A stretch of 61,737 bases of DNA. It comes from an uncultured Acidimicrobiales bacterium. GTDB lineage: Bacteria > Actinomycetota > Acidimicrobiia > Acidimicrobiales > Poriferisodalaceae. Location of the stretch: NCBI GenBank assembly GCA_964350975.1, contig CAYGMW010000001.1, positions 1 through 61,737 on the forward strand. The letters run 5' to 3'. A program made the position numbers and the translations under genes. The notes beneath the pieces were generated by a model, which had not been told where the DNA came from, did not search any database, and saw only the letters and a list, made by a program, of their open reading frames with translations. Positions 14,799 through 58,258 of this stretch are shown one piece after another. Numbering within the stretch: position 1 is the first letter of the stretch; each line of letters starts with the position of its first letter.

Positions 14799-14827
14799 CG
14801 GGCCACAATATGGGGCAATGTGGGGAG

Positions 14828-32777: not shown

Positions 32778-33947
32778 TTACAGGTTCCAGGCAACAGCTC
32801 GGGAAATGAAATCGAAGAAGAACATCAGCGCAATCAAGAACAGTGGTGCGCCGATGGCATAGGCGAGCCACTTGCGCCATCGGTTGGACGCCAGCCAGAT
32901 CGCGAACCCGATGAACGCGGTGAGCAGGCCGGTGAAGATGGCCGGGAACACCGCATCGGGATCGGCCCCGATTCCGCCGTCGGCGACCTCAGTGATGGTC
33001 TGCGACCGGGCTGGAGTCGACGCTGGCACCGTGGTTGGGGTCGGAGCAACGGGTTCGGGGAGGGCATCGAGGCTCTCGCCCGGCTCGGTCTCAAATGACT
33101 GCCCGTCGTCGGCCAACTCGGCAATCGCAGCACCGTCGACTGCGAGCTGAGTCGGATCAGATGGAGCCGGGTCGCCTAACAACTCAGCCACGATGACGAG
33201 GCGTTCGCGTGCGCTCCAACGCGGGTGGCAGGTGGTGAGCGTCAGGCGGTTGTCCTCGGTCGGGTTGAGCACGAAGACGTCTTTGGGCTTGACGATCACC
33301 TGCTCGACGACGCGGTAGACGAATGATCCTTGGACGGTCGTCACATAGATCAAGTCGTTTTCGGCCAACTCGTCGAGGTTGTGGAACGGCGAGCCGTAGG
33401 TGGTGCGGTGTCCGGCGATCGCCGAGTTGCCGGCCTGTCCCGGCAATGGCGTTCCGGGGTAGTGGCCCGGGCCCTTCTTGAGTTCGTCGACCCCGACACC
33501 TTCCACGATGGTCTTCGTGAGACCGATGCTCGGAATCCGGATCTGGGCGATGCCTTCGCCCTCTTTGGCCGGCGGCGGCGGGGGCCCAACGTCTCGGTTG
33601 ACGACCTCAGCCGGCAGATTCGACAGATCGATCACGTTTGTGGTGCCGAGCTCGCCGGTCTCGACTCGGACGACTGCTGCTTCGGGTGTGTTGTCAATCG
33701 CCGACGCGGACTGCACCGCAGTCGGGTCGAGGCTTTCGGGGAGAGCGACGTCGGCCAAGTCGGCGCGATCGGCGTCTTCGCCGAGTTGTTCTTCGAGGGC
33801 GGCGTTGAAGTCGTCAGCGAGTGCGTCTTGGGCGCGGGCTTCTTGGAGCCCGGTTCCCCACAGTTGGTAGACGACGAACAGCAAGATCAGCGTTCCCGTG
33901 CCGATGAGGGTGCGGCCGATGTTGCCGATGATGCGGCTCCAGTTCAT
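32778..33947 (-). CDS. Class E-like sortase with extra C-terminal two-helix membrane domain
   Basis: Start is ATG 33947 with GAGGTGA upstream. It has an N-terminal TM segment. Catalytic motifs are IAGHRTTYG (His), TLTTCHP (TLxTC Cys) and RERLVIVAEL (Arg). The C-terminal ~60 aa form two hydrophobic helices. Confidence 0.85.
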   Translation of the reverse strand: MNWSRIIGNIGRTLIGTGTLILLFVVYQLWGTGLQEARAQDALADDFNAALEEQLGEDADRADLADVALPESLDPTAVQSASAIDNTPEAAVVRVETGELGTTNVIDLSNLPAEVVNRDVGPPPPPAKEGEGIAQIRIPSIGLTKTIVEGVGVDELKKGPGHYPGTPLPGQAGNSAIAGHRTTYGSPFHNLDELAENDLIYVTTVQGSFVYRVVEQVIVKPKDVFVLNPTEDNRLTLTTCHPRWSARERLVIVAELLGDPAPSDPTQLAVDGAAIAELADDGQSFETEPGESLDALPEPVAPTPTTVPASTPARSQTITEVADGGIGADPDAVFPAIFTGLLTAFIGFAIWLASNRWRKWLAYAIGAPLFLIALMFFFDFISRAVAWNL

Positions 33948-34116
33948 TGGCTCACCTCGGCTTCCTGGTCTCGGGTAGTCATCATGCGGGGAGCCCACAA
34001 CGGTAGGGGCTGGTTGGGGCTTTGTTGGTTCGCTGGGCCGGCATCGGGGTTTCGACGTGGGCCATCACCTCGTTGTCGTCGACCGACATGGCCACGACCC
34101 AACTAGTCTCAGCCGA

Positions 34117-34803
34117 ATGTCGACGGCCATTTCTACGAGCGAGGCCGTCGTGCTACTCGGACGTTTTCCTGCGCTCGCCGGGGCCTCGGCCACGATCGAG
34201 CAGGGCGAGGTGGTGCTGCTCCGAGGGCCAAACGGGGTCGGCAAGACCACTTTTCTTCGGATGTGCGCCGGACTTTTGGCGGTGACATCAGGATCCGTGA
34301 ACGTGCTCGGCCACGACCTCACCCAGGCCCGACGTTCGGTCCGCAAACACGTGGGGCTGCTGGGCCACCAGACCTACCTCTATGACGACCTGACCGTTCG
34401 TGACAATCTCGAGTTCTGGTCGGCAACAGTCGGAGTCGGCAAGGAGTTCGCTGTCGCCGCTGCTCGCCGCGTCGGTATCGAACACCGGCTGATGACCGTC
34501 GAAGTCGAGCGATTATCAGCTGGTCAGCGGCGCCGTGTCGCGCTGGCTGTGCTGGTGGCACGCCGGCCGCGTTTATGGCTCCTCGACGAGCCCCACGCGG
34601 GGCTCGACCAAGATGGTCGCGACATGCTCGATGGGCTGCTTCGAGAAGCGGCCTCGGCTGGCGCCACGGTGGTGTTTGCTAGCCACGAACTGGAGCGAGC
34701 CCACGCGGTTGCTGACCGAGAGCTGCTGTTCGCGGGCGGGTGCATCGTTTCCGATACTCGCCTGGTTCACCGAACGCCTCCTGAGGCATCGAGCCCCGCA
34801 TGA
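34117..34803 (+). CDS. ccmA: Heme exporter ATP-binding protein CcmA
   Basis: Start moved to ATG 34117 (track 34057). It has GPNGVGKTT (Walker A), LSAGQRRRVAL (signature) and LWLLDEP (Walker B). Confidence 0.88.
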   Translation: MSTAISTSEAVVLLGRFPALAGASATIEQGEVVLLRGPNGVGKTTFLRMCAGLLAVTSGSVNVLGHDLTQARRSVRKHVGLLGHQTYLYDDLTVRDNLEFWSATVGVGKEFAVAAARRVGIEHRLMTVEVERLSAGQRRRVALAVLVARRPRLWLLDEPHAGLDQDGRDMLDGLLREAASAGATVVFASHELERAHAVADRELLFAGGCIVSDTRLVHRTPPEASSPA

Positions 34804-35474
34804 GCTGGTGGCGCGCAGCGTGGCTGATTGCACGCAAGGACCTCACGATCGAACTCAGGTCGCGTGGCACGATCAATCAGGTGGCGCCGCTCGGGCTGTT
34901 GATCCTGGTTGTGTTCGCGTTCGCGTTCGACCAGAACGCCCAGCTTCTTGAGCTCGGTAGCCCCGGCTTGTTCTGGGTTGGAGTGCTGTTCAGCGGCATC
35001 TTGACGGTGCAGCGGGCCTTCACCACTGAAGGTTCCGACGGGCTCACCGACGCACTGCGGCTCAGCGGTATTGGTCCCGCATCGATCTATCTCGGCAAGA
35101 CGCTGGCGGTCGCCGTCCAGCTGTTGGCGTTGGAGGTGGTCTTGCTGGCCGGAATCATCGTGCTGTTCGACGGCTCTGTCGACGATTGGCTCCTGCTCGG
35201 CGTTTCGGCCCTGGTCGGCACGGGGGCGTTCGCGGCGGCTGGCTGTATCTATGGGGCGATGTCGCTGGGCTTGCGTGTGCGCGAGACACTGTTGCCGTTG
35301 TTACTCATGCCCGTGGTGGCTCCGCTGCTGCTTGCGGGCAGTCGAGCATTCGAACACGCGCTCGGCGTTGGCGACGAACCTGGGTGGAGTTGGGTTGGAT
35401 TGTCCGGGGTGATGTTCGTTGTTTACCTCGCCCTGGGTACGCTGTCGGCCAGCCCGCTCTTGGAGGATGGTTGA
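34800..35474 (+). CDS. ccmB: Heme exporter permease CcmB
   Basis: 224 aa and polytopic. It has the FTTEGSDGLTDAL CcmB-type motif. It has an ATGA overlap with ccmA. Confidence 0.88.
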   Translation: MSWWRAAWLIARKDLTIELRSRGTINQVAPLGLLILVVFAFAFDQNAQLLELGSPGLFWVGVLFSGILTVQRAFTTEGSDGLTDALRLSGIGPASIYLGKTLAVAVQLLALEVVLLAGIIVLFDGSVDDWLLLGVSALVGTGAFAAAGCIYGAMSLGLRVRETLLPLLLMPVVAPLLLAGSRAFEHALGVGDEPGWSWVGLSGVMFVVYLALGTLSASPLLEDG

Positions 35475-35476
35475 TC

Positions 35477-36259
35477 GTGCGTGCCGCGACCTCGACAGCT
35501 ACTCGTTCGGCAACCGCTTCGATCGCCACCCGCATTTTGGGATGGATGTCCCTCGCGTCACTGAGCGCCGTCGCCTACCTCGGCTTGGTGGTCTCGCCCC
35601 GCGACATCAACCAAGGCGAGGCGGTTCGGTTGATGTACCTACATTTGCCGGTGATCTGGATCGCATATGGCGCGTTCATCACCTCAGCGGTTGCCAGTGC
35701 CTGGCTGTTGTGGCGTGGTCCTCGTCGACCGGACCAGGGCCGCCATCTTGACCGGGTTGCCGGCGCTGCCGCCGAAGTCGGCGTCGTGTTCACGGCCTTG
35801 ACCCTCATCACCGGTGCAATGTGGGGCCGCATCACCTGGGGCGTCTACTGGCAATGGGACGCCCGCCTCACCACCACGGCAATCATGTTCGTGAGCTACC
35901 TCGGTTATCTGGCGTTGCGTCGAATCCCAGCCGACCCCGTGGTGAGATCGCGCCGTGCCGCTATCGCAGCGCTGGTGTCGGCGGCCAACTTGCCCCTTGT
36001 TCACTTCAGCGTCGACTGGTGGGTCACCTTGCACCAAGAAGCCAGCCTGCGCTCGCTGGCCGATCCCGACATCACTGGCGACATGCTCATGGTCTTGTTG
36101 TTCTCAGTTGTTGCGTTCACCATCGTCGGACTGTGGCTCATGACCCACCGCTACCGCGTCATCCGGCTCGAGGAGATCCTCGAAGAAGAGGGCCTCGAGG
36201 CCGCTCTCGCCAGCCGGCGCAGTGAGCGAGCCAGCCGCGTCACCGCGGGGGTGAACTAA
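35477..36259 (+). CDS. ccmC: Heme exporter protein CcmC
   Basis: Track ORF 35186..36259 overlaps ccmB. The in-frame GTG 35477 lies 2 nt after the ccmB stop. The WWD motif is WGVYWQWDARLT. Confidence 0.88.
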   Translation: MRAATSTATRSATASIATRILGWMSLASLSAVAYLGLVVSPRDINQGEAVRLMYLHLPVIWIAYGAFITSAVASAWLLWRGPRRPDQGRHLDRVAGAAAEVGVVFTALTLITGAMWGRITWGVYWQWDARLTTTAIMFVSYLGYLALRRIPADPVVRSRRAAIAALVSAANLPLVHFSVDWWVTLHQEASLRSLADPDITGDMLMVLLFSVVAFTIVGLWLMTHRYRVIRLEEILEEEGLEAALASRRSERASRVTAGVN

Positions 36260-36435
36260 TGGAATCCTGGGGGATGATCATCAGCGGATACGGCGTCGTT
36301 TTTGGTGCCGTTCTCCTATATGCCTTGGTGGTCGTGCGACGCGGCCGCCGTCTTGCAGCAGAACTCGGGCTGGGGACGCCCGACAACGAGGGGGATGCAC
36401 TGGCAGGCGACCAGCACAACCCTCCATGGAACTGA
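36259..36435 (+). CDS. ccmD: Heme exporter protein CcmD (58 aa, absent from ORF track)
   Basis: Own translation: MESWGMIISGYGVVFGAVLLYALVVVRRGRRLAAELGLGTPDNEGDALAGDQHNPPWN*. It has a single TM helix followed by a basic RRGRR patch. It has a TAATG overlap with the ccmC stop. Confidence 0.8.
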   Translation: MESWGMIISGYGVVFGAVLLYALVVVRRGRRLAAELGLGTPDNEGDALAGDQHNPPWN

Positions 36436-36460
36436 TTCTCAACCCCACAAGTGAGTCGAA

Positions 36461-37057
36461 GTGAACGACGATCCCACAGTTGCCGGTTTCGACGATGGGC
36501 TTGATCTCGCCCCGCGAACCGACCTTGACGATGCCCAAGCGCTCCGCCGTGAATTGAGGCAGGGCCAGCGAAAGTGGTTGGTCTTGGCTGGCGTGGTCAT
36601 CGTTGCCGCGCTCGGGTTCTTGGTGCTGCAATTCTTGCGAGACGCCACGGTGTTCTTCCGCAACGTCGATGAAGCCGTCGCCGAGCGCGAAGAACTTGGC
36701 GATCGACGGTTCCGGCTTCAAGGCCGGGTGATCCCCGACTCGGTGCGCGTCGACGGCGACGTGGTGTCGTTCGAGGTCCTGTATGGCTGTGCCACCGCGT
36801 CGGTTCGTCACCTGTCTGACCCACCCGAGCTCTTCGACAACCCGTGGATTCCCGTGGTACTTGAGGGCAACTGGGAGCCCGGCGACGTCGAACTCGTGTC
36901 GGGCCCAGATGACCACGTCTTTGTGTCGGACCGGATGCTCATCAAGCACACCAATGAGTACTCAGCCGATTATGAGGATCGGGTCGAAACCAATCTTCCA
37001 GACGACTTCTTGGTGGGTTGCGATCTGACCCCAGCCGATGTCGGGCTCGAGTTGTGA
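36461..37057 (+). CDS. ccmE: Cytochrome c-type biogenesis heme chaperone CcmE
   Basis: 198 aa with a GTG start. It has an N-terminal TM anchor and an OB-fold core RLQGRV...V.F. The heme-binding motif is KHTNEY (HxxxY). Confidence 0.88.
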   Translation: MNDDPTVAGFDDGLDLAPRTDLDDAQALRRELRQGQRKWLVLAGVVIVAALGFLVLQFLRDATVFFRNVDEAVAEREELGDRRFRLQGRVIPDSVRVDGDVVSFEVLYGCATASVRHLSDPPELFDNPWIPVVLEGNWEPGDVELVSGPDDHVFVSDRMLIKHTNEYSADYEDRVETNLPDDFLVGCDLTPADVGLEL

Positions 37058-39012
37058 GCGCTCTTGGCACTATTGCGCTGATCGCAGGTCTTGTCGGCTC
37101 GGTGATGGGCGCCCTGAACGCTGCAACCGGGTTGGCCCGCAACGATGGCGCCCAGCTCAAGATGTCATTCCGCTGGGCCAGCATCGTGTTCGCATCGGCG
37201 GTAGGGGCGACCATCGTCCTCGAAATCGCCCTCCTGTCGAACGACTTTTCGTTCGAATATGTCGCGGCGAACAGCAATATCGACCTGCCGCTGATGTACA
37301 AGATCTCCGTCTTGTGGGCCTCGCTCGAAGGTTCCTTGGTGTTGTGGGTGCTGGTCCTCACGGGATATGTGTTCGCAACTGCGTTCCGTTTCCGCGACCG
37401 GCTCGACGATCGCCTGCTCGGCTTCACCATGCTCACCTTGTTTGTGGTGGCGGCCTTCTTCTTCGGCCTGCTGGTCGGGCCCGCTGACCCGATGCAGACA
37501 CTCGTCCGGCCCCCGCTCGACGGCAACGGACCGAACCCGCTGCTTCAGAACCATCCCCTGATGGCGATTCATCCGATCATGCTGTATCTCGGCTACGTGG
37601 GGTTCACGGTGCCGTTCGCGTTCGCAATCGGCGCGTTGGCTACCGGACGCGTGGGCGAAGGTTGGCTGTTGCTGACCCGGGCGTGGACCGTGGCGGCTTG
37701 GGGCTTCCTGACTGTTGGCATCATCCTCGGCGGATGGTGGTCCTATGAGGTGCTCGGCTGGGGCGGCTACTGGGCGTGGGACCCAGTCGAGAACGTCTCG
37801 TTCCTACCGTGGCTGACGGCCACCGCGTTCTTGCACTCCGTGGTGGTCCAAGAGCGACGCGGGATGCTCCGAGTCTGGAACCTGTCGCTCATTATCTCGA
37901 CGTTCGCCCTCACTATCTTGGGCACGTTCGTGACCCGCTCCGGTGTTCTCGATTCGGTGCACGAGTTCAGCGAATCATCGATCGGTCCCGTGCTGCTGGC
38001 CTTCTTCGGCGTCATCGTGGTGGTGTCGTTCTGCTTGATTGCGTGGCGCATGGAGCTGCTGCGCACCGTTGGCACCATCGAATCGCCGCTGTCTCGCGAA
38101 GGTTCCTTCGTGGGCAACAACTTGTTGTTCACGGCGTTCGCGTTCGTGGTGCTGCTGGGCACCATGTTCCCGTTGCTTGTCGAAGCCCTGAACAACGACC
38201 AGCTGTCGGTGGGCTCGCCCTACTTCAATCGGCTGACGGCCCCGATCGGGTTGATGATCCTGTTCTTGATGGGTGTGTCGCCCTTGCTGCCGTGGCGATC
38301 GACCGCTCCAGAGTTGTTGCGAGACCGAGCCTTTTGGCCCGCGGTTTTTGCCCTCGTAGTACTCGCGGTGGCCGTGGTCTTTGGCGCTGATTCGTTGTAC
38401 GAAATGCTTGGTTATCTGGCCGCTGGTTTTGCCATGGGTTCGTCAGGTCGCCACTTGATCTTGGCCGGCAAGCGGCAAGGGTGGCGCGGCGTCACCGGCC
38501 GAGCTGGTGGCGGCATGGTCGCTCACCTCGGTCTGGCGATCTTGGCGCTCGGTTTCATTGCCAGCTCCGAACATGGCAGTGAGGTCGAAGCTCGGCTCAA
38601 GGTCGGCGACGTTGTTGAGGTTGCCGGCCACACGGTCGAGTACGTCGAGCGGGTCGACTTCTTCGAGGGCCGCAATGAGGTCACCCAGGTCGCGGTGCTG
38701 ATCGACAACGACGAGGTCCACCGGCCGGCCATCACCCGGTTTGCGACCTTCGGTACCCCTATTGGAACCCCATCGGTCGCCACGGGATGGCGCGACGACG
38801 TCTACGTCAGCGTGCTCGACGTTTCCGACGACGGCAGCACCGCCCTCATTCGTGTCATCGTGCGGCCGCTCATCACGTGGCTGTGGACCGGCGGCCTCTT
38901 GATGGGGTTTGGCGCCTTGCTGGCGATGATCCCGCACGGATCTCGCAAGCGCACCGGCCCGGCGCCAGCCAGCGTTGAGACGAACGACACGGTAGCGACG
39001 GTCGACGCATGA
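37054..39012 (+). CDS. ccmF: Cytochrome c heme lyase subunit CcmF
   Basis: In-frame GTG 37054 overlaps the ccmE stop (GTGA). It is polytopic. The WWD motif is GWGGYWAWDPVEN. Confidence 0.92.
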   Translation: MSALGTIALIAGLVGSVMGALNAATGLARNDGAQLKMSFRWASIVFASAVGATIVLEIALLSNDFSFEYVAANSNIDLPLMYKISVLWASLEGSLVLWVLVLTGYVFATAFRFRDRLDDRLLGFTMLTLFVVAAFFFGLLVGPADPMQTLVRPPLDGNGPNPLLQNHPLMAIHPIMLYLGYVGFTVPFAFAIGALATGRVGEGWLLLTRAWTVAAWGFLTVGIILGGWWSYEVLGWGGYWAWDPVENVSFLPWLTATAFLHSVVVQERRGMLRVWNLSLIISTFALTILGTFVTRSGVLDSVHEFSESSIGPVLLAFFGVIVVVSFCLIAWRMELLRTVGTIESPLSREGSFVGNNLLFTAFAFVVLLGTMFPLLVEALNNDQLSVGSPYFNRLTAPIGLMILFLMGVSPLLPWRSTAPELLRDRAFWPAVFALVVLAVAVVFGADSLYEMLGYLAAGFAMGSSGRHLILAGKRQGWRGVTGRAGGGMVAHLGLAILALGFIASSEHGSEVEARLKVGDVVEVAGHTVEYVERVDFFEGRNEVTQVAVLIDNDEVHRPAITRFATFGTPIGTPSVATGWRDDVYVSVLDVSDDGSTALIRVIVRPLITWLWTGGLLMGFGALLAMIPHGSRKRTGPAPASVETNDTVATVDA

Positions 39013-39614
39013 CCACCAGCGATTACGAGCCCGACTACACCGAGTTCGACGAGTTCGACGACGCTCAACCAGTCCCCGCATGGGTAAAGGTTGGGGTGGC
39101 GGCGGCCGGTCTGGCGCTGGTCATGTTCATTGCTGTGCTTGCCGTCAGCGACGGTAGCGACGGCGAGGGTCAGGTCGATTCGCCGTTGATCGGCCGCGCC
39201 GTTCCGCCGCTGGTCGGCACCACCCTCGACGGCGGCACCTTCGATATCGACTCGGCTCAAGGTCAGTGGGTGTTGCTCAACTTCTTTGCCAGCTGGTGTG
39301 TGCCCTGCCAGGTAGAGCACCCCGAACTTGTCGAGTTCTCGGACCGACATCGCGATGGTTCGGCCACCGTGGTCAGCGTGGTGATGGGCGACACGGTCGA
39401 AAACACCGAGCGCTTTTTCGCCGAGCGCGGCGGCGACTGGCCGGTGTTGATCGATGCCGACAGCGCTCCAGCGCAGTTTGTTGTCGTACAGGTGCCCGAG
39501 TCGTTCCTTGTTGCCCCATCGGGGCTCGTCGTGGCGAAATGGATTGGCGACATCACCGCCGACATGGTCGATGGCGTGATCGACGAACTCACGGCGCCGG
39601 CGGTCCAGCCATGA
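39009..39614 (+). CDS. ccmG: Thiol:disulfide oxidoreductase CcmG/DsbE
   Basis: 201 aa. It has a TM anchor and a thioredoxin fold with FFASWCVPC. It has an ATGA overlap with ccmF. Confidence 0.88.
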   Translation: MTTSDYEPDYTEFDEFDDAQPVPAWVKVGVAAAGLALVMFIAVLAVSDGSDGEGQVDSPLIGRAVPPLVGTTLDGGTFDIDSAQGQWVLLNFFASWCVPCQVEHPELVEFSDRHRDGSATVVSVVMGDTVENTERFFAERGGDWPVLIDADSAPAQFVVVQVPESFLVAPSGLVVAKWIGDITADMVDGVIDELTAPAVQP

Positions 39615-40084
39615 ACCGGCTGACCGAAAAGCAACGCAATATTGCCTGGCTCGCGCTGATGGCGGCCATCGTTGTGGTTGTTTTCGCGGGCATCGCAAAT
39701 GCCAATCACGGACCGAAGTCCGATGACGAGCGGGCCTACGACATCAAGAAGACGATCCTGTGTCCGGCCTGCGATGGCCAGAACATCCTCGAGTCGAACG
39801 CCCCCATCGCTACCTCGTTGCGAGCCCTCGTGGATGACCTGGTGGCTCAAGGCGATTCCGACGACGAGATTCGCGACCAGATCGTGTCGATTTACGACGA
39901 CAGCGTGAATGCGATTCCTCCAGCCACGGGCATTGGCTCACTTGTCTGGGTGATTCCGGTGGCCGGACTGATCGTTGTCATTGGTGGCTTGGTCCTCAGC
40001 TTCAAACGATGGTCAGACGCGGCTGCGGCTGAGGTATCGGCAGCAGATCGTGCCCTCGTCGACCGCGCCCGGGGCCCGTTGTGA
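39611..40084 (+). CDS. ccmH: Cytochrome c-type biogenesis protein CcmH
   Basis: The track ORF 39266..40084 N-part overlaps ccmG. ATG 39611 gives MNRLTEKQRNIAWLALMAAIVVV... It has an LCPACDGQNILES (CxxC) motif and a C-terminal TM segment. It has an ATGA overlap with ccmG. Confidence 0.85.
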   Translation: MNRLTEKQRNIAWLALMAAIVVVVFAGIANANHGPKSDDERAYDIKKTILCPACDGQNILESNAPIATSLRALVDDLVAQGDSDDEIRDQIVSIYDDSVNAIPPATGIGSLVWVIPVAGLIVVIGGLVLSFKRWSDAAAAEVSAADRALVDRARGPL

Positions 40085-40911
40085 GTCGGCGGCCCGACCC
40101 GGCCCGAATTGCCAGGCTCGAAGAGGAACGCGACTCGCTGCTGTCCCAGCTCGACCGACTCGATGCCGAACTTGCGGCTGGCGACATCGATGAGGTCGAT
40201 CATCGCAGCCTGAGCGACGACCTCACCCGTCGGGCAGCACACGTGATCCGACGGCTCGACCGTCAACGCCCACCGCCCGTGCAGAGGCGCAAGGTATCGA
40301 TGAAGCGGCGAGTCCTGACGGCCGTCGCAGTTCTGGCCGTGTCTGTGGCGGCCGGAACGGCGGTAGCCATGTTCTCCGGCACCCGCCTCGAAGGACAGTT
40401 CGGGTCAGGCGAAATCGAGAAGAACTCTCGCGACCTGCTGCTCGATGCCACCTCGGCGCTCAGTAGAGGCGACCTCGACGCCGCCGCAGACACTGCCAAC
40501 GAGGTGCTCGATCTGTTGCCCGGAGACCCCGATGCCTATGTGGTGCTCGGCCAGGTGGCCCAGCAACGCAGCGATCTGTTGGGTGCCATCCAGGCTTATG
40601 ACCAAGCCTTGTTGACTGAACCAAACCATGTTGGGGCCCTGACCTGGAAGGGTTCGATCCTGGTGCGGCTGCCCGACCCCGAACTCGCGGCCGACGGTGT
40701 CGACCTGCTCGATCAGGCTATTGCCGCGGGTGCGTCGACCTTTGAGGCCTATATGTGGCGGGCGGTCGCGGCCTCAGATATCGAGGGCGATCTCGAAGCC
40801 GCCATCGGTTTCTACGAAGAGGTCCTCGCTCGCAACCCGCCGGCACCGATGGTTGGTGTGATCGAAGGAAACATCACCAGCTTGCAAGCCGAGTTGGATC
40901 AGGCTGGTTAG
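40081..40911 (+). CDS. ccmI: CcmI/CycH-like TPR protein
   Basis: 276 aa with a GTG start overlapping the ccmH stop. It has one TM segment (VLTAVAVLAVSVAAGTAVAMF), then TPR-like repeats (AYVVLGQVAQQRSDLLGAIQAYDQAL...). Assignment is by position and architecture. Confidence 0.7.
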   Translation: MSRRPDPARIARLEEERDSLLSQLDRLDAELAAGDIDEVDHRSLSDDLTRRAAHVIRRLDRQRPPPVQRRKVSMKRRVLTAVAVLAVSVAAGTAVAMFSGTRLEGQFGSGEIEKNSRDLLLDATSALSRGDLDAAADTANEVLDLLPGDPDAYVVLGQVAQQRSDLLGAIQAYDQALLTEPNHVGALTWKGSILVRLPDPELAADGVDLLDQAIAAGASTFEAYMWRAVAASDIEGDLEAAIGFYEEVLARNPPAPMVGVIEGNITSLQAELDQAG

Positions 40912-40917
40912 CAGCCC

Positions 40918-41382
40918 TTACCGTGGTGGCGGTCGGTAGCTGGCGTGTGTTGGCGACCCGTCGACGATGTCGAAACTCCACACCGACCCCTTAGCGACCG
41001 CGTTGGGGCCATCGAGGGTCATTCCACGAAGCTGCAACAGCCTGAGTACCTCAGGCAAAAGATCGCCGTGAGCACACAGCACGAGCTGGTCGAACGGGTG
41101 TGTTTCGTCGCACAGCCACGAGGTCATGACCTGGGGGTCTGACCCCTCGGCCAGCCGGTCGTCGAGCACGAGTTCGATGCCAAGTCGCTCGGCCAACGGA
41201 CCCACCGTGGTGACGCAGCGGACTGCGGGGCTCGTCCGGATGTGGGTGGCTGGATCGTCGACGAGGCTGGCGAGCACTTCGGCTTGGCGATGGCCGGTTT
41301 TGGACAGGGGCCGAACTCGGTCCGGCTCTTCCCATTTCCGGCGACCAAGGGCATCTGCATGACGGACCAGGTGGACTCTCAT
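40918..41382 (-). CDS. Histidine phosphatase family protein (SixA-like)
   Basis: 154 aa. MRVHLVRHADA...SKTGHRQA is the RHG-type motif. CAHGD is also present. Confidence 0.8.
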   Translation of the reverse strand: MRVHLVRHADALGRRKWEEPDRVRPLSKTGHRQAEVLASLVDDPATHIRTSPAVRCVTTVGPLAERLGIELVLDDRLAEGSDPQVMTSWLCDETHPFDQLVLCAHGDLLPEVLRLLQLRGMTLDGPNAVAKGSVWSFDIVDGSPTHASYRPPPR

Positions 41383-45189: not shown

Positions 45190-46116
45190 ATGCGCATGAA
45201 CTTGCTCGACTATCAGTTCCTCGCCGTGACCGGCAAGGGCGGCGTTGGCACGACGTCGGTGGCGGCGGCGATAGCGATTGCGGCCGCCCGTTCGGGTCGA
45301 TCCGTGCTGCTGTGTGAGGTCGAGCCGGGAGGCGGGGCCGGTCCGGCCGTTGGTGTCGCTGCCGTGAAGTACGACCCTACGCCGAGCCCGGTTCGCGGGG
45401 TATCGGTGATGGCGATGGACACCGAACGATCGGTGCGCGACTTCGTCAAGGTGATGACTCGGGTACCTTTGCCCGTCGACACTGGGCCCCTTGCCCGTAT
45501 CTTGGATTTTGTGGCCTCAGCCGCTCCTGGCGTGCGTGAGATCTTGACTGTCGGCAAGCTGGCCCACGAGGTGCGCGAACGCACCTATGACCTCGTCATT
45601 ATGGACGGCCCTCCCACCGGCCACATTGTTGGTCACCTCGCCGCGACCGAGGGTGTCGTCGAGATCGCAGGTGGCGGATTGCTTGGCCGCCAAGCGTCGT
45701 GGATGCGCGAGATCCTCCACGACCCCGCACGTACCGCCGCCGTCATCTGCGCCACTCCAGAGGAGCTGCCAGTGGCCGAGGCCATCGATCTGAGATCGCG
45801 GATCGCCGATGGCACCGGCGTGGCCGTCGCGGGATATGTGTTGAATTCAGTGAGGCCGCCGGCGCTCCCGCCTGATGTTGAGGCCGCCGTCGCCGCGCTC
45901 GCCACGGGCCATGCCCAAGCCGAGCCCTACAGCCGAGCCCTCGATGCTGCGGTTCTGGCCGGCAGCTTGCGTCACGCCGGAGCCCGGTCGGCGGCCAGGC
46001 TTCGGGCCGCGGCCGACGTGCCCGTGTGGTCGTTGCCGCTGGTGACCGACGCGTTCACCGACGCCGCCGTGGTGCTCAAGCTGGCCGAGGCCCTGGTTGC
46101 GGAGCTTGACCTATGA
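45190..46116 (+). CDS. ArsA/Get3-like P-loop ATPase (subunit 1)
   Basis: 308 aa. It has a deviant Walker A VTGKGGVGTTSV, and DGPPTGH. Confidence 0.85.
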   Translation: MRMNLLDYQFLAVTGKGGVGTTSVAAAIAIAAARSGRSVLLCEVEPGGGAGPAVGVAAVKYDPTPSPVRGVSVMAMDTERSVRDFVKVMTRVPLPVDTGPLARILDFVASAAPGVREILTVGKLAHEVRERTYDLVIMDGPPTGHIVGHLAATEGVVEIAGGGLLGRQASWMREILHDPARTAAVICATPEELPVAEAIDLRSRIADGTGVAVAGYVLNSVRPPALPPDVEAAVAALATGHAQAEPYSRALDAAVLAGSLRHAGARSAARLRAAADVPVWSLPLVTDAFTDAAVVLKLAEALVAELDL

Positions 46117-47237
46117 ACCCCGCGACCAGCCCCGACGCGGCGAACATGGCGTCGATCATCCGCACCGCGGAGGTCATCTTGACGTGTGGTGCTGGGGGAG
46201 TCGGCAAGACCACCGTTGCCGCAGCGATTGCCCGTGCTGCGGCCAGCGACGGCCGCCGGGTAGCGCTCGTGACGGTCGACCCGGCCCAGCGGCTCGCGGA
46301 CGCAATGGGTATCGATCTGGGCGACGACCTCACCGAGATCGACATCGATGGCCCTGGCCGATTGTTCGCGTCGATGATCGATACCTCGGCGGCATGGGAT
46401 CGACTCATCGTCAACCGGGCTCCGAACCCCGACATTGCCCAGCGGCTGCTGGTGAACCCGATCTACCGCAATATCACTGCTCGCTTCATCCAGAGCCACG
46501 AGTACATCGCGATCGAACGTTTACACGAGCTGCGGAATCATCCCGATGTCGATCTGCTGGTGGTCGATACTCCGCCATCAGGGCATGCTGCTGATCTGCT
46601 CGATGCGCCGGAACGTATGGTCGACTTCTTCAACGGCAATCTGTTGAACTGGCTCACCATGCCCACCCGAAACCGGTTTGCGGCCGTGGCGTCCAAGCCG
46701 TTTTTCGCGGCGGTTGACCTTTTGCTTGGCAAGGCGTTCGTCAGCGATCTGAGCCAGTTCTTCGGCGTGTTGCGCGAGCTTGGCCCAGGGTTCACCGAGC
46801 GAGCCCAACAGGTCGAAGCAACCCTGCATGAGGAGGCGACGAACTTTGTCATCGTCACCTCACCATCGCCGCGGCCATGCCGCGAGGCGGTGGCGTTTGG
46901 CGAACAGTTGGTCCAACGCAAGCTGGCCGCAACGGCGATCGTGTTTAACCGGGTACTGCCCCGATGGCTCGACGATGATGCCGTAGCGACCCAAGCCGAT
47001 GCTCTGAGGCTGGCCGCCGATGGCGTGGCTGCTCAGAGCCCCCTCGTTGAGCCGCGACACCTGGCCGCAGCTGCTGATCGAGCCGGAGAGCTCCACCGAG
47101 TTGCCGTGGCTGAGCGGCAGCGCCTCGATGGATTGCCTGTCGACGGTTTGGTCGTCGAACTGCCCCTGATCGTCGATCGGGCCGAACTGGAGATGGTCGA
47201 CGAGCTGGCCGCGGTTCTGATGGGCAATACCCGGTAG
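46113..47237 (+). CDS. ArsA/Get3-like P-loop ATPase (subunit 2)
   Basis: 374 aa. It has CGAGGVGKTTVA and DTPPSGH. It has an ATGA overlap with the preceding gene. Confidence 0.85.
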   Translation: MNPATSPDAANMASIIRTAEVILTCGAGGVGKTTVAAAIARAAASDGRRVALVTVDPAQRLADAMGIDLGDDLTEIDIDGPGRLFASMIDTSAAWDRLIVNRAPNPDIAQRLLVNPIYRNITARFIQSHEYIAIERLHELRNHPDVDLLVVDTPPSGHAADLLDAPERMVDFFNGNLLNWLTMPTRNRFAAVASKPFFAAVDLLLGKAFVSDLSQFFGVLRELGPGFTERAQQVEATLHEEATNFVIVTSPSPRPCREAVAFGEQLVQRKLAATAIVFNRVLPRWLDDDAVATQADALRLAADGVAAQSPLVEPRHLAAAADRAGELHRVAVAERQRLDGLPVDGLVVELPLIVDRAELEMVDELAAVLMGNTR

Positions 47238-47256
47238 GACAGGTACCGTCTCGCCT

Positions 47257-48732
47257 GTGGCAAGCATCTCGGAAATGGCCAGGCTCGGTGCCAATGTAAC
47301 CGCTCCTCAGCTCACACACCTCCAACGCATCGTTCAGTGGTGGGTGATGCTCGCCGATATCTCCTTTGCGGACCTGCTGCTGTTTGCGCCCGAGCGCGAC
47401 GGCCGCTTCGTGGTGGTTGGCCAGATCCGTCCTTCGACGGCTCAGACGATGTATCACGATGACGAGGTCGGCCGCATCGTCGACGAGGTCGACCGCCCGT
47501 TGGTGGCTCGGGCATTTCGGTTAGGCCAGATCGTCGACGGTGAGATCAACCTCACCGCGAGCTATGGGTCGCGGGCCCAAGTTCAAGGCATCCCTGTGCG
47601 TCACCAAGGCGAAATCATTGGTGTCATCACCCGCGAAACCCGGCCTGACCTCGAAAAGGTCCGCCAGTTTGGCCAGTTGGAGCTGAGCTATCTCGACATC
47701 TTCGGGCGGTTCAGTCGCATGATCGAACGGGGCGAGTTCCCCTTCGACGAAAGCGACGTCGACCCCGAAGACCTGCCCCGCGTTGGGGATGGTGCTCTTG
47801 TCCTCGACGATGAGGCTCGCATCATTTTCGCGTCGCCAAACGGGCTGTCGACCCTGCACCGCATCGGTTTTGCTGGCGCGTTGGTTGGCCGCCGAATGAG
47901 CGATCTCGGCTTGGCTCAGAGCATGGTGCGCGATGCCCTGACGATGGTGCGGCCCATGGCTGCCGAAGTCGAGCGCGGTGGCCTCACGATCCAGGTGGTG
48001 GCGGTGCCTCTGTCTGGGCCGGCTGACCAACGAGGCGCTCTTGTGATGATGCGCGACGTCACTGAGTTGCGCCGCCGTGACCGGCTGCTGATGTCGAAAG
48101 ATGCAACAATTCGTGAGATCCATCACCGGGTAAAGAACAATCTTCAGACGATCTCGTCGCTGCTTCGCTTGCAGGGCCGCCGAGTTGAATCAGCCGAAGC
48201 CAAGCAGGCCATTGATGACTCAGTGCGGCGGATTCGGGCGATTTCGCTGGTCCATGAAACCCTCGCCCAGGAGTCTGGCGAGGACATTTCTCTGCGCGAG
48301 ATCGTCGACCAGCTGAGTCGTTTCGTCGAGTCGAGCCTCGTCGACGAAGGTCGGCGCATCCAACTGTCCGTACATGGTGACGTTGGTACCGCTCCCGCCG
48401 AAGTGGTCACACCGCTCGCGGTCGTGATCAACGAACTCCTGCAAAATGTGGTCGATCACGCCTATCCGGCCGGCACTGAGGTCGTCGACGGTGTGGTTGG
48501 CCATGTGGCGATCCAGCTCCACGGTTCGGCTCGGGCTGGCTTGAACATCGAGCTGACCGACGACGGAGCGGGGCTGCCGATCGCGTTCGACCCCGACCGT
48601 TCCGGAGGTCTCGGAACCTCGATTGTTCGGACCTTGGTCACCAGCGAGCTGGGCGGCGTCTTGACGATGGACAACCGTCCCATGGGTGGCACCATCGTGA
48701 CCATCACGATCCCGCCGATTCGCCCGGCCTAG
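47257..48732 (+). CDS. pdtaS: PdtaS-type sensor histidine kinase (GAF-PAS-HisKA_2-HATPase)
   Basis: 491 aa and cytoplasmic (no TM segment). It has the EIHHRVKNNLQTISSLLRLQ H-box and ...ELTDDGAGLP...GLGTSIV ATPase motifs. Confidence 0.8.
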   Translation: MASISEMARLGANVTAPQLTHLQRIVQWWVMLADISFADLLLFAPERDGRFVVVGQIRPSTAQTMYHDDEVGRIVDEVDRPLVARAFRLGQIVDGEINLTASYGSRAQVQGIPVRHQGEIIGVITRETRPDLEKVRQFGQLELSYLDIFGRFSRMIERGEFPFDESDVDPEDLPRVGDGALVLDDEARIIFASPNGLSTLHRIGFAGALVGRRMSDLGLAQSMVRDALTMVRPMAAEVERGGLTIQVVAVPLSGPADQRGALVMMRDVTELRRRDRLLMSKDATIREIHHRVKNNLQTISSLLRLQGRRVESAEAKQAIDDSVRRIRAISLVHETLAQESGEDISLREIVDQLSRFVESSLVDEGRRIQLSVHGDVGTAPAEVVTPLAVVINELLQNVVDHAYPAGTEVVDGVVGHVAIQLHGSARAGLNIELTDDGAGLPIAFDPDRSGGLGTSIVRTLVTSELGGVLTMDNRPMGGTIVTITIPPIRPA

Positions 48733-48747
48733 GCCACGGCACAAGGA

Positions 48748-49704
48748 TTAGACGGCGAGTTTGGCCATCATCGAAAACAGGCCAGCGACGTCGGTTCGGG
48801 GTCGCTGGGGGTCAAGCTCGCGGTACACAGTGTCGACATTGACGGCGATACGTTCGCGGTCGATCCAGTCAGAGAACTGGCCGAGTGAGATGTCCGCCGC
48901 AGCTTCGCCAGCGGTCATCCCCGCCGCGTGGCGGGCCCGAGCTTCGGCATCGACAAAGGTGAGGTAGTCGCGCACTCGGCGCACGCCGTCGGCATCGGTG
49001 AGCGGGCCGTGGCCAGGGACAATGCAGGTGGCATCGAGGCTGACGATCAGATCGCAGGCCGCAATCCAGTTCGAGATCGGCCCGGCCCACATCAGCGGTG
49101 TGCCTTCGATGAACAAGATGTCGCCGGTGTAGACCACCCCGGTTTCGGGCACGTAGGCAATGACGTCACCTTCGGTGTGTGCGGGGCCAACCTCGTGGAG
49201 CTCGACGGTGAGGTCGCCAACAGTGACGTCGAGGCGACGTTCGAAGGTGACCGTCGGCGGAGTCATGGTGATGCCTTCGAAATCGAAAGCGCTGAAACAC
49301 TCGACGAGGTAGGTGCCCAAGTCGCCGAGGTTCGGGGCGGCCTTCATGAAGGCATCGAGCACAGCCGGCGGAGTCTGCACCATCTCGGCTGCGCACGCTG
49401 ATGAGGCAATGATGTCAGCGCCGACCACCAGCTCGTTTCCGTAACAGTGGTCGCCGTTGGCATGGGTGTTGACGAGCTGACGGATGGGAGCCGCCGCGGT
49501 GATCGAGCTCATTGAGTCGAGCATGTCGCGGGTCAGTCGCAGGTCGAACAAGGTGTCGACGAGCAGTGATTCGCCGCCGTTGGTCACCAACCCGGCGTTG
49601 CTCCAGCCCCAACCGCCGTCGGGTTGGAGGTAAGCGAACGACCCGTTCGCGACCTCGATGAGCCCGTGTGAGTAGGACGCGGCGCGTCCACCATTCGACG
49701 ACAT
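48748..49704 (-). CDS. MBL-fold metallo-hydrolase
   Basis: 318 aa. It has the NTHANGDHCYGN (HxHxDH variant) motif and downstream PGHG. Confidence 0.85.
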   Translation of the reverse strand: MSSNGGRAASYSHGLIEVANGSFAYLQPDGGWGWSNAGLVTNGGESLLVDTLFDLRLTRDMLDSMSSITAAAPIRQLVNTHANGDHCYGNELVVGADIIASSACAAEMVQTPPAVLDAFMKAAPNLGDLGTYLVECFSAFDFEGITMTPPTVTFERRLDVTVGDLTVELHEVGPAHTEGDVIAYVPETGVVYTGDILFIEGTPLMWAGPISNWIAACDLIVSLDATCIVPGHGPLTDADGVRRVRDYLTFVDAEARARHAAGMTAGEAAADISLGQFSDWIDRERIAVNVDTVYRELDPQRPRTDVAGLFSMMAKLAV

Positions 49705-49720
49705 GCGATCAACCCCTCGC

Positions 49721-49739
49721 TTGCCGCACCACGCGGCAA
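49721..49739 (-). terminator. Short hairpin between whiB and the downstream MBL gene (attenuator/terminator candidate)
   Basis: ttgccgc-accac-gcggcaa forms a 7-bp perfect stem. There is no U-tract. It is followed by GAGGGG (SD) and the MBL ATG. Confidence 0.3.
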
Positions 49740-49750
49740 CGTGAACAGTT

Positions 49751-50041
49751 CTAGCTGGCGCGAGCTGCAGCTGCGGCGCGTCGACGTGCTCGCCGGATGT
49801 CGCGTCGCTCTTCTTCTGAGGTTCCGCCCCAAACGCCAGCGTCTTGGTTGGTGATCAGAGCGAACTCCAAGCACAACTCACGGGCGTTGCACTGGTTGCA
49901 CACCTCCTTGGCTGCCTCGATCTGGTCGATTGCCAGGCCGGTGGTGCCGACCGGAAAAAACAGCGCCGGATCGGTGCTACGACACGCTGCCTGATCCCGC
50001 CAGGTAGCGCTGTCAAGCAACAAGCTTGCGTGAACCGCCAT
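49751..50041 (-). CDS. whiB: WhiB-family [4Fe-4S] transcription factor (WhiB1-like)
   Basis: 96 aa. It has four Cys (C...C-x2-C-x5-C: AACRSTDPALFFP...VCNQCNARELC), a GVWGG turn and a basic C-terminal tail RRDIRRARRR. Confidence 0.9.
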   Translation of the reverse strand: MAVHASLLLDSATWRDQAACRSTDPALFFPVGTTGLAIDQIEAAKEVCNQCNARELCLEFALITNQDAGVWGGTSEEERRDIRRARRRAAAAARAS

Positions 50042-56553: not shown

Positions 56554-57033
56554 GTGCATACTGAGCCAATGACTCGCCGACCAGAACCGCTGCTTGTTGG
56601 ATGGCGTGAATGGGTTGCGTTGCCGGTCCTTACCGAACGGGCCATTGTCAAAGCCAAGATCGATACGGGTGCGTTGACTTCAGCGCTGCACGCGCCACGG
56701 TTGTCCATCACGACGACCGCCGAGGGTTCGGTCGCTCGGTTCTTGCTGCATCCGGCCCAACGAACCTCCGCGTCCTCGGTGTGGGTTGAGCTGCCCGTTC
56801 ATGAGTTCCGCACGGTGCGATCTTCTAACGGCCATCAACAACGCCGACCGGTAGTGGTGTGCGACATCGTGTTAGGTTCGAACCGCTTCCCCGTCGAATT
56901 CACCCTCGCTGACCGCAGCTCGATGGGTTTTCGAATGCTCTTGGGACGCTCAGCGCTCCGTCGGCGCTTCTACGTCGATCCCGGCCATTCGTACCTGCTC
57001 GGTCAGCCTGCCGATCCGAAAGACGCTCGATGA
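56554..57033 (+). CDS. Retropepsin-like aspartic protease (DUF785, annotated 'ATP-dependent zinc protease', RimB-like)
   Basis: 159 aa. VGWREWVALP...KAKIDTGALTSALHA carries the D-T-G-A aspartic-protease signature. It has an ATGA overlap with rimK. Confidence 0.8.
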   Translation: MHTEPMTRRPEPLLVGWREWVALPVLTERAIVKAKIDTGALTSALHAPRLSITTTAEGSVARFLLHPAQRTSASSVWVELPVHEFRTVRSSNGHQQRRPVVVCDIVLGSNRFPVEFTLADRSSMGFRMLLGRSALRRRFYVDPGHSYLLGQPADPKDAR

Positions 57034-58250: not shown

Positions 58251-58258
58251 GAAGCTCC

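What the first reader, a model, noticed from the sequence alone, without database searches (positions are those of the whole stretch)
34117..40911. Complete, translationally coupled System I (ccmABCDEFGHI) cytochrome c maturation operon in an actinobacterial genomic context
Nine co-directional genes are linked by ATGA/GTGA/TAATG overlaps or gaps of 25 nt or less. Diagnostic motifs are all present:
- CcmC WWD motif (WGVYWQWDARLT)
- CcmF WWD motif (WGGYWAWDPVEN)
- CcmE heme-binding HxxxY (HTNEY)
- CcmG WCVPC
- CcmH CPAC
- TPR-containing CcmI

The flanks carry actinobacterial markers (WhiB, class E sortase, PdtaS, ArsA-pair, SCO1664 triad). As far as I know, model Actinobacteria (Mycobacterium, Corynebacterium, Streptomyces) use System II (ResB/ResC-CcsBA with CcdA/ResA). 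System I is associated with alpha/gamma-proteobacteria, Deinococcus, some archaea and plant mitochondria. GC and codon style look native, so this is not an obviously recent transfer. This may be a lineage-specific replacement of the maturation system in a monoderm-type cell.
Basis: partly seen in the sequence, partly recalled or inferred. Interest (0 to 1): 0.65.

Follow-up and report, generated by a model that had tools for sequence, protein, structure and literature searches.

The report
Ordinary cytochrome c maturation operon, Acidimicrobiia
This is a complete, canonical nine-gene System I (ccmABCDEFGHI) operon for attaching heme to c-type cytochromes in an uncultured Acidimicrobiia bacterium; the same operon sits at the same chromosomal place throughout that class and is already annotated there, so it is ordinary rather than a lineage-specific oddity.

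Summary
Nine co-directional genes at 34117-40911 encode CcmA to CcmI. The flanks are actinobacterial: class E sortase, BagA/BagB-like ArsA pair, PdtaS, WhiB and the SCO1664 triad. Base composition is uniform.

The closest CcmF relatives (49-78% identity) are all Acidimicrobiia. In a rough tree, 38 species-representative genomes form one CcmF clade with the window. Twenty-three of the 80 loci show the same A-B-C-E-F-G-H-I order, a small CcmD ORF lies between ccmC and ccmE in nearly all, and the flanking genes are syntenic too. NCBI and JGI already name these proteins CcmF. A published KO table for seven cultured Acidimicrobiia strains lists ccmA, ccmB, ccmC and ccmF in all seven and no System II genes.

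So System I is the class-wide, vertically inherited state, and it also occurs in some Actinomycetes. Reviews still assign System II to "Gram-positives", so the distribution is under-discussed, but the operon is mechanistically standard. Whether System I replaced System II or is ancestral was not resolved. Interest is low.

The parts
33999..34116 (.). 118-bp divergent intergenic region between the class E sortase gene and ccmA. This is the presumed promoter region of the operon (inferred, not shown).
   Evidence: The sigma-70 consensus scan found nothing here, which is uninformative for a high-GC actinobacterium.
34117..34803 (+). ccmA, the ABC ATPase of the heme-handling CcmAB(CD) release complex (228 aa). 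Walker A GPNGVGKT, signature LSAGQ, Walker B LLDEP.
   Evidence: TIGR01189 scores 149.1 bits against a cut-off of 131.6. PF00005 E 6e-30. Motifs. The ATG at 34117 gives near full-length profile coverage. An alternative GTG at 34057 is not excluded.
34800..35474 (+). ccmB, the membrane subunit of the ABC complex (224 aa, about 6 hydrophobic segments).
   Evidence: PF03379 CcmB E 6e-28. ATGA overlap with ccmA. Hydrophobic segments.
35471..36259 (+). ccmC, the WWD heme-handling protein that loads heme onto CcmE. The start is TTG 35471 (TTGA overlap with ccmB) or GTG 35477. WWD motif at 35837-35872. The two periplasmic His residues lie in YLH56LP and LVH176F.
   Evidence: PF01578 E 2e-30 and TIGR01191 E 2e-48. 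It aligns to E. coli CcmC 7F02_C, E 1e-28, with both His residues and the WWD motif conserved. Coordinates.
36259..36435 (+). ccmD, a 58-aa single-pass membrane protein and partner of CcmC. It overlaps the ccmC stop codon (TAATG).
   Evidence: A positional orthologue of 37-67 aa overlaps or abuts the ccmC stop in nearly all 60+ loci examined. Consensus: MxxxGYVxAGYxxxxxxLxxYAxxLxRRGRxL. PF04995 CcmD: window copy E 0.02; 17 of 28 orthologues hit, best 3.5e-6.
36461..37057 (+). ccmE, the membrane-anchored heme chaperone (198 aa). It has a TM segment at about residues 40-58. The covalent heme-binding His163 lies in HTNEY (36947-36961). It has a cytoplasmic N-terminal extension of about 38 aa.
   Evidence: PF03100 E 5e-12. 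NF009727 E 1e-13. Motif and TM segment.
37054..39012 (+). ccmF, the holocytochrome c synthase core (652 aa). WWD motif at 37759-37794. P-His1 is H173, TM-His1 is H261, P-His2 is H303 and TM-His2 is H491.
   Evidence: PF01578 plus PF16327. TIGR00353 E 1.5e-128. It aligns over residues 4-630 to Thermus thermophilus CcmF 6ZMQ, E 3e-128, with all four His residues aligned. Coordinates. GTGA overlap with ccmE.
39009..39614 (+). ccmG (DsbE-type), a membrane-anchored thioredoxin-like apocytochrome/CcmH reductase (201 aa). WCVPC at 39294-39308. The PESF loop corresponds to the GxPETF motif.
   Evidence: Redoxin and AhpC-TSA hits. DsbE TIGR00385 E 5e-18 and ResA-like E 7e-19. Motifs.
39611..40084 (+). 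ccmH, the thiol-redox partner of CcmF (157 aa). It has an N-terminal signal/anchor, CPAC at 39761-39772 and a C-terminal TM segment.
   Evidence: PF03918 E 3e-25. TIGR03147 NrfF-type E 1e-20. Motifs and hydrophobic segments.
40081..40911 (+). ccmI-like TPR protein (276 aa). It has a cytoplasmic coiled N-terminus, one TM segment (about 78-96) and an external TPR domain. It is the presumed apocytochrome chaperone. Together with CcmH it resembles E. coli CcmH split in its cytoplasmic loop.
   Evidence: TPR_16 E 1.5e-12. PF23914 TPR_CcmH_CycH E 4e-9, 37 bits, below its cut-off of 42. A 271-275 aa TPR protein occupies the same position in close relatives and in 23 species loci. GTGA overlap with ccmH.

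Best explanation
The region is a canonical, complete System I (Ccm) cytochrome c maturation operon. It is native to an uncultured member of class Acidimicrobiia (phylum Actinomycetota) from a biofilm metagenome, and it has been inherited vertically at a conserved chromosomal site.

The mechanism below is inferred from homology to the E. coli, Thermus and Rhodobacter systems. None of it was shown for this organism.
1. CcmC with CcmD binds heme at its external WWD/His56/His176 site, and His163 of membrane-anchored CcmE bonds covalently to it.
2. ATP hydrolysis by CcmA/CcmB releases holo-CcmE.
3. Holo-CcmE delivers heme to the WWD/H173/H303 site of CcmF. The stable b-heme of CcmF, ligated by H261 and H491, reduces the incoming heme iron.
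4. CcmG (CVPC) and CcmH (CPAC) keep the CXXCH cysteines of Sec-exported apocytochromes reduced, and the TPR domain of CcmI holds the apocytochrome.
5. CcmF/H forms the two thioether bonds on the outer face of the cytoplasmic membrane.

Likely clients are membrane-anchored cytochromes such as the actinobacterial QcrC subunit. The tight overlaps imply a single transcript with coupled translation.

The shown steps are gene content, motifs, order, synteny and distribution across the class. The inferred steps are biochemistry, clients, transcription and the source of reductant. No CcdA or DsbD gene lies in the window.
For: Family and structure matches exist for eight of the nine proteins, and all catalytic residues are present. 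CcmD is supported by position and by a weak profile match.

Class assignment and spread:
- The CcmF relatives at 49-57% identity in species-representative genomes are Acidimicrobiia or Acidimicrobiales.
- Relatives at 61-78% identity that carry a name are called Acidimicrobiales bacterium.
- In a rough tree, the window sits beside Poriferisodalaceae inside a clade of 38 species.
- The same A-B-C-E-F-G-H-I order is found in 23 of the 80 loci. Most of the rest are cut by contig ends.

Synteny and composition:
- The flanks are syntenic: sortase upstream, then His-phosphatase, HTH, Mrp and ArsA downstream.
- Two relatives at 70-75% CcmF identity have a near-identical neighbourhood of about 20 kb.
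- G+C and GC3 are uniform.

Cultured strains:
- Seven Acidimicrobiia type strains carry ccmA, ccmB, ccmC and ccmF (7 of 7). ccmE and ccmH are each in 6 of 7.
- None has a resB, ccsB, ccsA, resC or ccs1 row (PMC12263773 Table S1).
- qcrC is present in 4 of 7.
Against: - There is no functional data for any Acidimicrobiia Ccm protein.
- The window contains no c-type cytochrome gene. No CXXCH motif occurs in any predicted gene.
- The window contains no CcdA or DsbD. The cultured-strain KO table lists ccdA in only 1 of 7 genomes and no dsbD, so the reductant route is unknown.
- The CcmI assignment rests on TPR content and position. PF23914 scores below its cut-off.
- The CcmD sequence match is weak.
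- The tree is a quick neighbour-joining tree without support values.
Confidence: 0.9

Rival explanations
1. The whole pathway was acquired recently by horizontal transfer from a Gram-negative donor, as a lineage-specific replacement peculiar to this organism.
For: System I and II have a mosaic, 'unpredictable' distribution, and whole-pathway transfer has been proposed before (the Goldman & Kranz 1998 title cited). The CcmF clades nearest to the Acidimicrobiia clade include Gemmatimonadota, Chloroflexota, Deinococcales and Myxococcota.
Against: - G+C and GC3 do not step at the operon borders.
- No mobile-element genes lie in the flanks.
- The operon and its flanks are syntenic across dozens of Acidimicrobiia species, down to about 50% CcmF identity.
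- The class forms one CcmF clade.

Any transfer would have to predate the diversification of the class.
Confidence: 0.03
2. The contig is an assembly or binning chimera that joins a Gram-negative ccm operon to actinobacterial flanks.
For: The window comes from a metagenome.
Against: - The same junctions (sortase|ccmA and ccmI|His-phosphatase) recur in independent assemblies. These include closed or near-closed chromosomes: OZ252012.1, NZ_OZ244925.1, OY730477.1 and a 4.3-Mb ENA contig.
- Cultured strains carry the genes.
- Four runs hold 78-97% of the operon's words.
Confidence: 0.01
3. The CcmF/H/I part is a dedicated NrfEFG-type lyase for a special heme motif (CXXCK), not the general synthase. 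Alternatively, CcmABC serves only as a heme-detoxifying exporter, as the text of PMC12263773 suggests.
For: NCBIfam NrfE and NrfF models score almost as well as the CcmF model. PMC12263773 describes CcmABC as a heme exporter acting against heme toxicity.
Against: - The NrfE and NrfF scores lie far below their cut-offs (427 against 927; 73 against 159), and the window has no nrfA.
- All nine genes are coupled in one unit with a His-type CcmE.
- It is the only recognisable maturation system in the seven cultured relatives, several of which have qcrC.
Confidence: 0.04

Closest known systems
Orthologous ccmABCDEFGHI operons of other Acidimicrobiia. Examples: MAG GCA_964569385.1 contig CAZMUM010000016.1 (L081), ENA ERZ28763718 ctg125528 (L082), Candidatus Poriferisodalis (L016, L023) and Iamia sp. 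(L010). Cultured Iamia majanohamensis and Actinomarinicola tropica are covered by the KO table.
   Same: - Gene content and order are the same, including the 58-59 aa CcmD and the TPR CcmI.
- The flanking genes are the same: Ogt, Ada, TetR, DUF5317, sortase | ccm | His-phosphatase, HTH, Mrp, amidase, DUF3107, ArsA x2, PdtaS, MBL, WhiB.
- CcmF identity is 49-78%.
   Different: Only sequence divergence and small differences in the flanks. For example, L081 has an unannotated 115-aa ORF where the window has the His-phosphatase gene, and L082 lacks the ArsA pair.
E. coli CcmABCDEFGH (System I prototype; CcmABCD structures 7F02 and related)
   Same: - All functional modules are present.
- CcmC has the WWD motif and both His ligands.
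- CcmE has HxxxY, CcmG and CcmH have CXXC, and the CcmF His residues fall at the same residue numbers as those I recall for E. coli (173, 261, 303, 491; the E. coli numbering is from memory, not checked here).
- It is a single operon with overlapping genes.
   Different: - E. coli CcmH is one polypeptide. Here it is split into CcmH and a TPR CcmI, as in Rhodobacter and Pseudomonas.
- CcmE, CcmG and CcmI carry longer cytoplasmic N-termini.
- The host is presumably monoderm, so there is no true periplasm.
- DsbD is not linked to the operon.
Thermus thermophilus CcmF (PDB 6ZMQ)
   Same: The alignment is full length (query residues 4-630, E 3e-128). The WWD motif and all four His residues are conserved.
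   Different: The hosts belong to different phyla. Identity across the species-representative genomes ranged from 39% to 57%; the value against Thermus itself was not computed.
System I* (archaea, Desulfovibrio)
   Same: It shares the CcmABCEF core.
   Different: System I* has CxxxY in CcmE and lacks CcmH. The window has HTNEY and a CcmH, so it is not the variant.
System II (ResA/CcdA/ResB/ResC) of Mycobacterium, Corynebacterium, Streptomyces and Bacillus
   Same: It has the same end product. CcmC, CcmF and ResC share the WWD heme-handling fold. CcmG resembles ResA.
   Different: There is no ResB and no CcsA-type protein in the window or in any of the 83 loci. The chaperone-based pathway (CcmE) is absent from System II.

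Membership tests
System I (Ccm) cytochrome c maturation | CcmA ABC ATPase and CcmB permease | tested here: met
   CcmA TIGR01189 scores 149 bits against a cut-off of 131.6. Walker A, Walker B and signature motifs are present. CcmB PF03379 E 6e-28.
System I (Ccm) cytochrome c maturation | CcmC with an external WWD motif flanked by two His ligands | tested here: met
   WGVYWQWDARLT, H56 and H176 align to E. coli CcmC 7F02_C.
System I (Ccm) cytochrome c maturation | CcmD, a small single-pass partner encoded after ccmC | tested here: inconclusive
   A 58-aa one-TM ORF overlaps the ccmC stop and is conserved in position and pattern across loci. The PF04995 match is only E 0.02 for the window copy; 17 of 28 orthologues hit, best 3.5e-6.
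System I (Ccm) cytochrome c maturation | CcmE heme chaperone with a membrane anchor and an HxxxY heme-binding motif | tested here: met
   PF03100 E 5e-12. TM segment at about 40-58. H163-T-N-E-Y167.
System I (Ccm) cytochrome c maturation | CcmF with WWD, two periplasmic His, two transmembrane His (b-heme ligands) and the CcmF_C domain | tested here: met
   PF01578 plus PF16327. H173, H261, H303 and H491 all align to His residues in 6ZMQ.
System I (Ccm) cytochrome c maturation | Thio-reduction module: membrane-anchored CcmG (CXXC thioredoxin fold) and CcmH (CXXC) | tested here: met
   CcmG has WCVPC and DsbE/Redoxin hits. CcmH has PF03918 E 3e-25 with CPAC.
System I (Ccm) cytochrome c maturation | CcmI, or a C-terminal CcmH TPR domain, as apocytochrome chaperone | tested here: inconclusive
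   TPR repeats are clear (TPR_16 E 1.5e-12) and the position is conserved. The specific model PF23914 scores 37 bits, below its cut-off of 42.
System I (Ccm) cytochrome c maturation | Transmembrane reductant supplier (DsbD or CcdA) somewhere in the genome | not testable with these tools
   None lies in the 61.7-kb window. The whole genome is not available. In seven cultured relatives, ccdA is listed in 1 of 7 and dsbD in none.
System I (Ccm) cytochrome c maturation | Covalent heme attachment to CXXCH apocytochromes depends on these genes | not testable with these tools
   This needs genetics or heterologous complementation with heme staining.
System I* variant (archaea, Desulfovibrio) | CcmE with CxxxY in place of HxxxY, and no CcmH | tested here: not met
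   HTNEY is present and CcmH is present. The definition is taken from PMC3601427.
NrfEFG dedicated heme lyase | nrfE/F/G linked to nrfA (CXCCK heme), with scores above the NrfE and NrfF model cut-offs | tested here: not met
   TIGR03145 scores 427 against a cut-off of 927. TIGR03147 scores 73 against 159. There is no NrfA or other multiheme gene in the window.
System II (Ccs/Res) | ResB/CcsB (PF05140) with CcsA/ResC | tested here: not met
   No such gene lies in the window. The only WWD proteins in the 83 related loci are of CcmC or CcmF type. The whole genome was not testable.

The most novel reading that the evidence does not exclude
System I may be the sole cytochrome c maturation pathway of the whole class Acidimicrobiia, and possibly the ancestral state of Actinomycetota, with System II in the model Actinomycetes being secondary. 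It would work on the outer face of a monoderm membrane. In most cultured members it would work without a recognisable CcdA or DsbD, which implies an undescribed route for delivering reductant to CcmG and CcmH.
Probability: 0.3. Interest if true: 0.4.

Novelty: already known. Interest (0 to 1): 0.18.

Why it matters
The practical value is as a correction. The review-level rule that Gram-positives use System II does not hold for Acidimicrobiia, a large, environmentally abundant class of Actinomycetota, nor for some Actinomycetes. The data for this already sit in public annotation.

At least one genome paper read CcmABC as a heme-detoxifying exporter rather than as part of cytochrome c maturation. 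A clear statement of the class-wide System I operon would help annotators.

The point could also feed an evolutionary question: which system is ancestral in Actinomycetota, and whether System I, said to be preferred when little heme is available, suits oligotrophic lifestyles. Mechanistically nothing here is new.

Tried and rejected
- Rfam and tRNA scans of the window found nothing that would identify the organism.
- Literature searches for ccmF or System I together with Acidimicrobiia or Actinobacteria found no paper on the topic. The Kranz 2009 review, which has a distribution figure, is not held.
- A search for the KO number K07399 in main texts found nothing. That K07399 means resB therefore rests on my memory. 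The term searches for resB, ccsB, ccsA, resC and ccs1 in the KO table do not depend on it.
- The Salinilacustristhrix supplements held no ccm or res terms.
- I wanted to test directly whether System II genes co-occur in Acidimicrobiia genomes. I dropped this and used the published KO table instead.
- My first script for finding CcmD picked internal starts inside ccmC. It was replaced.
- The promoter and terminator consensus scan inside the operon was no better than shuffled sequence.
- Recent transfer, a chimera and an Nrf-type dedicated lyase were considered and rejected (see the rival explanations).

Full report
**1. The observation**

ORF listing and junction reading show nine + strand genes filling 34117-40911.

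| Gene | Coordinates | Note |
|---|---|---|
| ccmA | 34117-34803 | |
| ccmB | 34800-35474 | |
| ccmC | 35471 or 35477-36259 | start ambiguous |
| ccmD | 36259-36435 | 58 aa |
| ccmE | 36461-37057 | |
| ccmF | 37054-39012 | |
| ccmG | 39009-39614 | |
| ccmH | 39611-40084 | |
| ccmI | 40081-40911 | |

The junctions, in order, are ATGA, TTGA (or a GTG start 3 nt after the stop), TAATG, a 25-nt gap, GTGA, ATGA, ATGA and GTGA.

Pfam and NCBIfam give specific hits for eight of the nine proteins. CcmA exceeds the curated cut-off of the CcmA equivalog (149 bits against 131.6). CcmF carries both PF01578 and the CcmF-specific C-terminal domain PF16327 (E 3e-56).

The small ORF has no hit at E <= 0.001. 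However, an ORF of 37-67 aa with one hydrophobic helix followed by a basic patch overlaps or abuts the ccmC stop in almost every related locus. Seventeen of 28 such ORFs hit PF04995 CcmD (best 3.5e-6); the window copy scores E 0.02.

The two CcmC His ligands align with E. coli CcmC in 7F02. The four CcmF His residues, at positions 173, 261, 303 and 491, align with His residues in the Thermus thermophilus CcmF structure 6ZMQ over a full-length alignment, E 3e-128. The role of these residues is described in PMC10663686.

CcmH plus CcmI together look like E. coli CcmH split in its cytoplasmic loop. The order is a CXXC domain, a TM segment and a cytoplasmic tail, then (in CcmI) a cytoplasmic coil, a TM segment and a TPR domain.

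**2. The context**

- A class E sortase lies divergent from ccmA (NF033747 above its cut-off).
- A BagA/BagB-like ArsA pair, PdtaS and a WhiB-type protein are present.
- The triad TIGR03843, TIGR03847 and TIGR03848 is present.

G+C is flat at 0.62-0.65. GC3 of the ccm genes matches their neighbours.

The window has no tRNA, no Rfam hit, no c-type cytochrome gene, no ResB or CcsA, and no CcdA or DsbD. The DNA is held by four runs labelled biofilm metagenome.

**3. Whose operon it is and how common it is**

A scan of one genome per GTDB species with CcmF returned 598 relatives. Of the 80 kept, those at 49-57% identity are labelled Acidimicrobiia, Acidimicrobiales, Acidimicrobiaceae, Iamia, Iamiaceae, Poriferisodalaceae or Aldehydirespirator, or more loosely Actinomycetota. 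Closer proteins (61-78% identity) in the large protein collection that carry a name are [quoted passage not shown] (NCBI). [quoted passage not shown]

A neighbour-joining tree of 81 CcmF sequences puts the window next to Poriferisodalaceae inside one clade of 38 species representatives. The tree has no support values and should be treated as rough.

tblastn with the window's nine proteins shows the same order and strand in the related loci. A, B, C, E, F, G, H and I are all detected in 23 of the 80 loci. Most of the others are cut by contig ends.

The flanks are conserved too. The sortase lies directly upstream in at least 17 loci. The His-phosphatase, HTH_20 regulator and Mrp/ApbC lie downstream in many. 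Two relatives at 75% and 70% CcmF identity, one on a 4.3-Mb contig, have a near-identical neighbourhood of about 20 kb, running from Ogt/Ada on one side to PdtaS (L081) or PdtaS/WhiB (L082) on the other.

This pattern is what long vertical inheritance at a stable locus looks like. It excludes recent transfer and assembly chimerism.

**4. Is System II also there?**

I could not scan whole genomes. A published eggNOG KO table covers seven cultured strains: Actinospongicola halichondriae, Iamia majanohamensis, Aquihabitans daechungensis, two Rhabdothermincola species, Actinomarinicola tropica and Dermatobacter hominis (PMC12263773, Table S1).

| KO | Genomes with it |
|---|---|
| ccmA, ccmB, ccmC, ccmF | 7 of 7 |
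| ccmE | 6 of 7 |
| ccmH | 6 of 7 |
| ccmG | 4 of 7 |
| ccdA | 1 of 7 |
| qcrC | 4 of 7 |
| dsbD | none listed |

The table contains no row for resB, ccsB, ccsA, resC or ccs1. The only "cytochrome c(-type) biogenesis" rows are ccmE, ccmF, ccmG, ccmH and ccdA. The table is held at least up to K19xxx. Rows jump from K07395 to K07400; K07399 is resB from my memory of KEGG.

So, as far as annotation goes, System I is the only maturation system in these cultured Acidimicrobiia. The text of that paper mentions only "a heme exporter system CcmABC" as protection against heme toxicity, which probably misreads the operon.

**5. What the literature says**

[quoted passage not shown] They place System II in Gram-positive bacteria, cyanobacteria and others (PMC3601427; PMC3884852). 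They also call the distribution complex and unpredictable (PMC4222556).

I found no open paper that discusses ccm genes in Acidimicrobiia.

CcmF also occurs in two further actinobacterial clades. These include cultured Actinomycetes (Tersicoccus phoenicis, Haloechinothrix sp.) and Microthrixaceae, and they use a different gene order, F-H-x-G.

**6. Mechanism**

I commit to the standard System I mechanism, inferred by homology.
1. CcmCD loads heme onto His163 of CcmE.
2. CcmAB uses ATP to release holo-CcmE.
3. CcmF/H accepts the heme at its WWD/H173/H303 site and reduces it through the b-heme ligated by H261 and H491.
4. CcmG and CcmH reduce the apocytochrome CXXCH, and the CcmI TPR domain holds the apocytochrome.
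5. Thioether bonds form on the outer face of the membrane.

Clients are probably membrane-anchored cytochromes such as QcrC. The reductant supplier is not identified.

**7. Verdict**

The identity of the operon, its context and its native status are right.
- Novelty: already known in kind and already annotated across the class.
- Interest is low, at about 0.18. The residual value is the under-discussed class-level distribution and the open question of the reductant route.

Noticed in passing
window 32778-33998 (-): A class E sortase gene lies divergent from ccmA, 118 bp away. This adjacency is conserved in at least 17 Acidimicrobiia species loci. No functional link to cytochrome maturation is known. 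It could simply be conserved synteny.
   Followed up: partly
window 40918-41382 (-): A short (154 aa) histidine-phosphatase-family gene converges on ccmI with only 6 nt between the stop codons, and it recurs downstream of ccm in many relatives. From memory, a PGAM-family gene also sits beside the System II genes of Mycobacterium (Rv0525). This may be coincidence.
   Followed up: no
loci L044, L053, L063-L066, L071 and L060, L070, L075: There are two further actinobacterial CcmF clades. They include cultured Actinomycetes (Tersicoccus phoenicis L065, Haloechinothrix sp. L071), a Nocardioidaceae MAG and Microthrixaceae. Several have the order F-H-x-G in place of F-G-H. So System I is not confined to Acidimicrobiia within the phylum.
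   Followed up: partly
PMC12263773 Table S1 (seven cultured Acidimicrobiia strains): ccdA is listed in only 1 of 7 genomes and dsbD in none, although all have System I with CcmG and CcmH. The route that brings reductant across the membrane is therefore unidentified. It may also be an annotation gap.
   Followed up: no
window 9908-9963: A perfect 18-nt tandem repeat of 3.1 copies encodes AETLSP x3 near the C-terminus of a HAD-family hydrolase ORF (9161-10006).
   Followed up: no
window 12921-21531: A glycogen metabolism cluster. It holds a branching-enzyme-like gene (12921-14900), glgC (14810-16081, + strand), glgA-like starch synthase (16065-17447), a debranching-type amylase (17444-19552) and an alpha-glucan phosphorylase with DUF3417 (19549-21531).
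   Followed up: no
window 45190-50041: A conserved actinobacterial block: a BagA/BagB-like ArsA pair, PdtaS sensor kinase, metallo-beta-lactamase-fold protein and WhiB. Its genes recur in relatives L081 and L082, each of which shows only part of the block (L082 lacks the ArsA pair; L081 ends before WhiB).
   Followed up: partly
Its function is unknown.
   Followed up: partly
window 4197-5798 (+): A 533-aa protein combines an AadA_C nucleotidyltransferase-associated domain with an APH-type phosphotransferase segment. This is an unusual fusion and I did not examine it.
   Followed up: no
window 57030-59218 (+): A RimK-type ATP-grasp ligase carrying a TrkA_C domain is followed by a succinylglutamate desuccinylase/aspartoacylase-family gene.
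   Followed up: no
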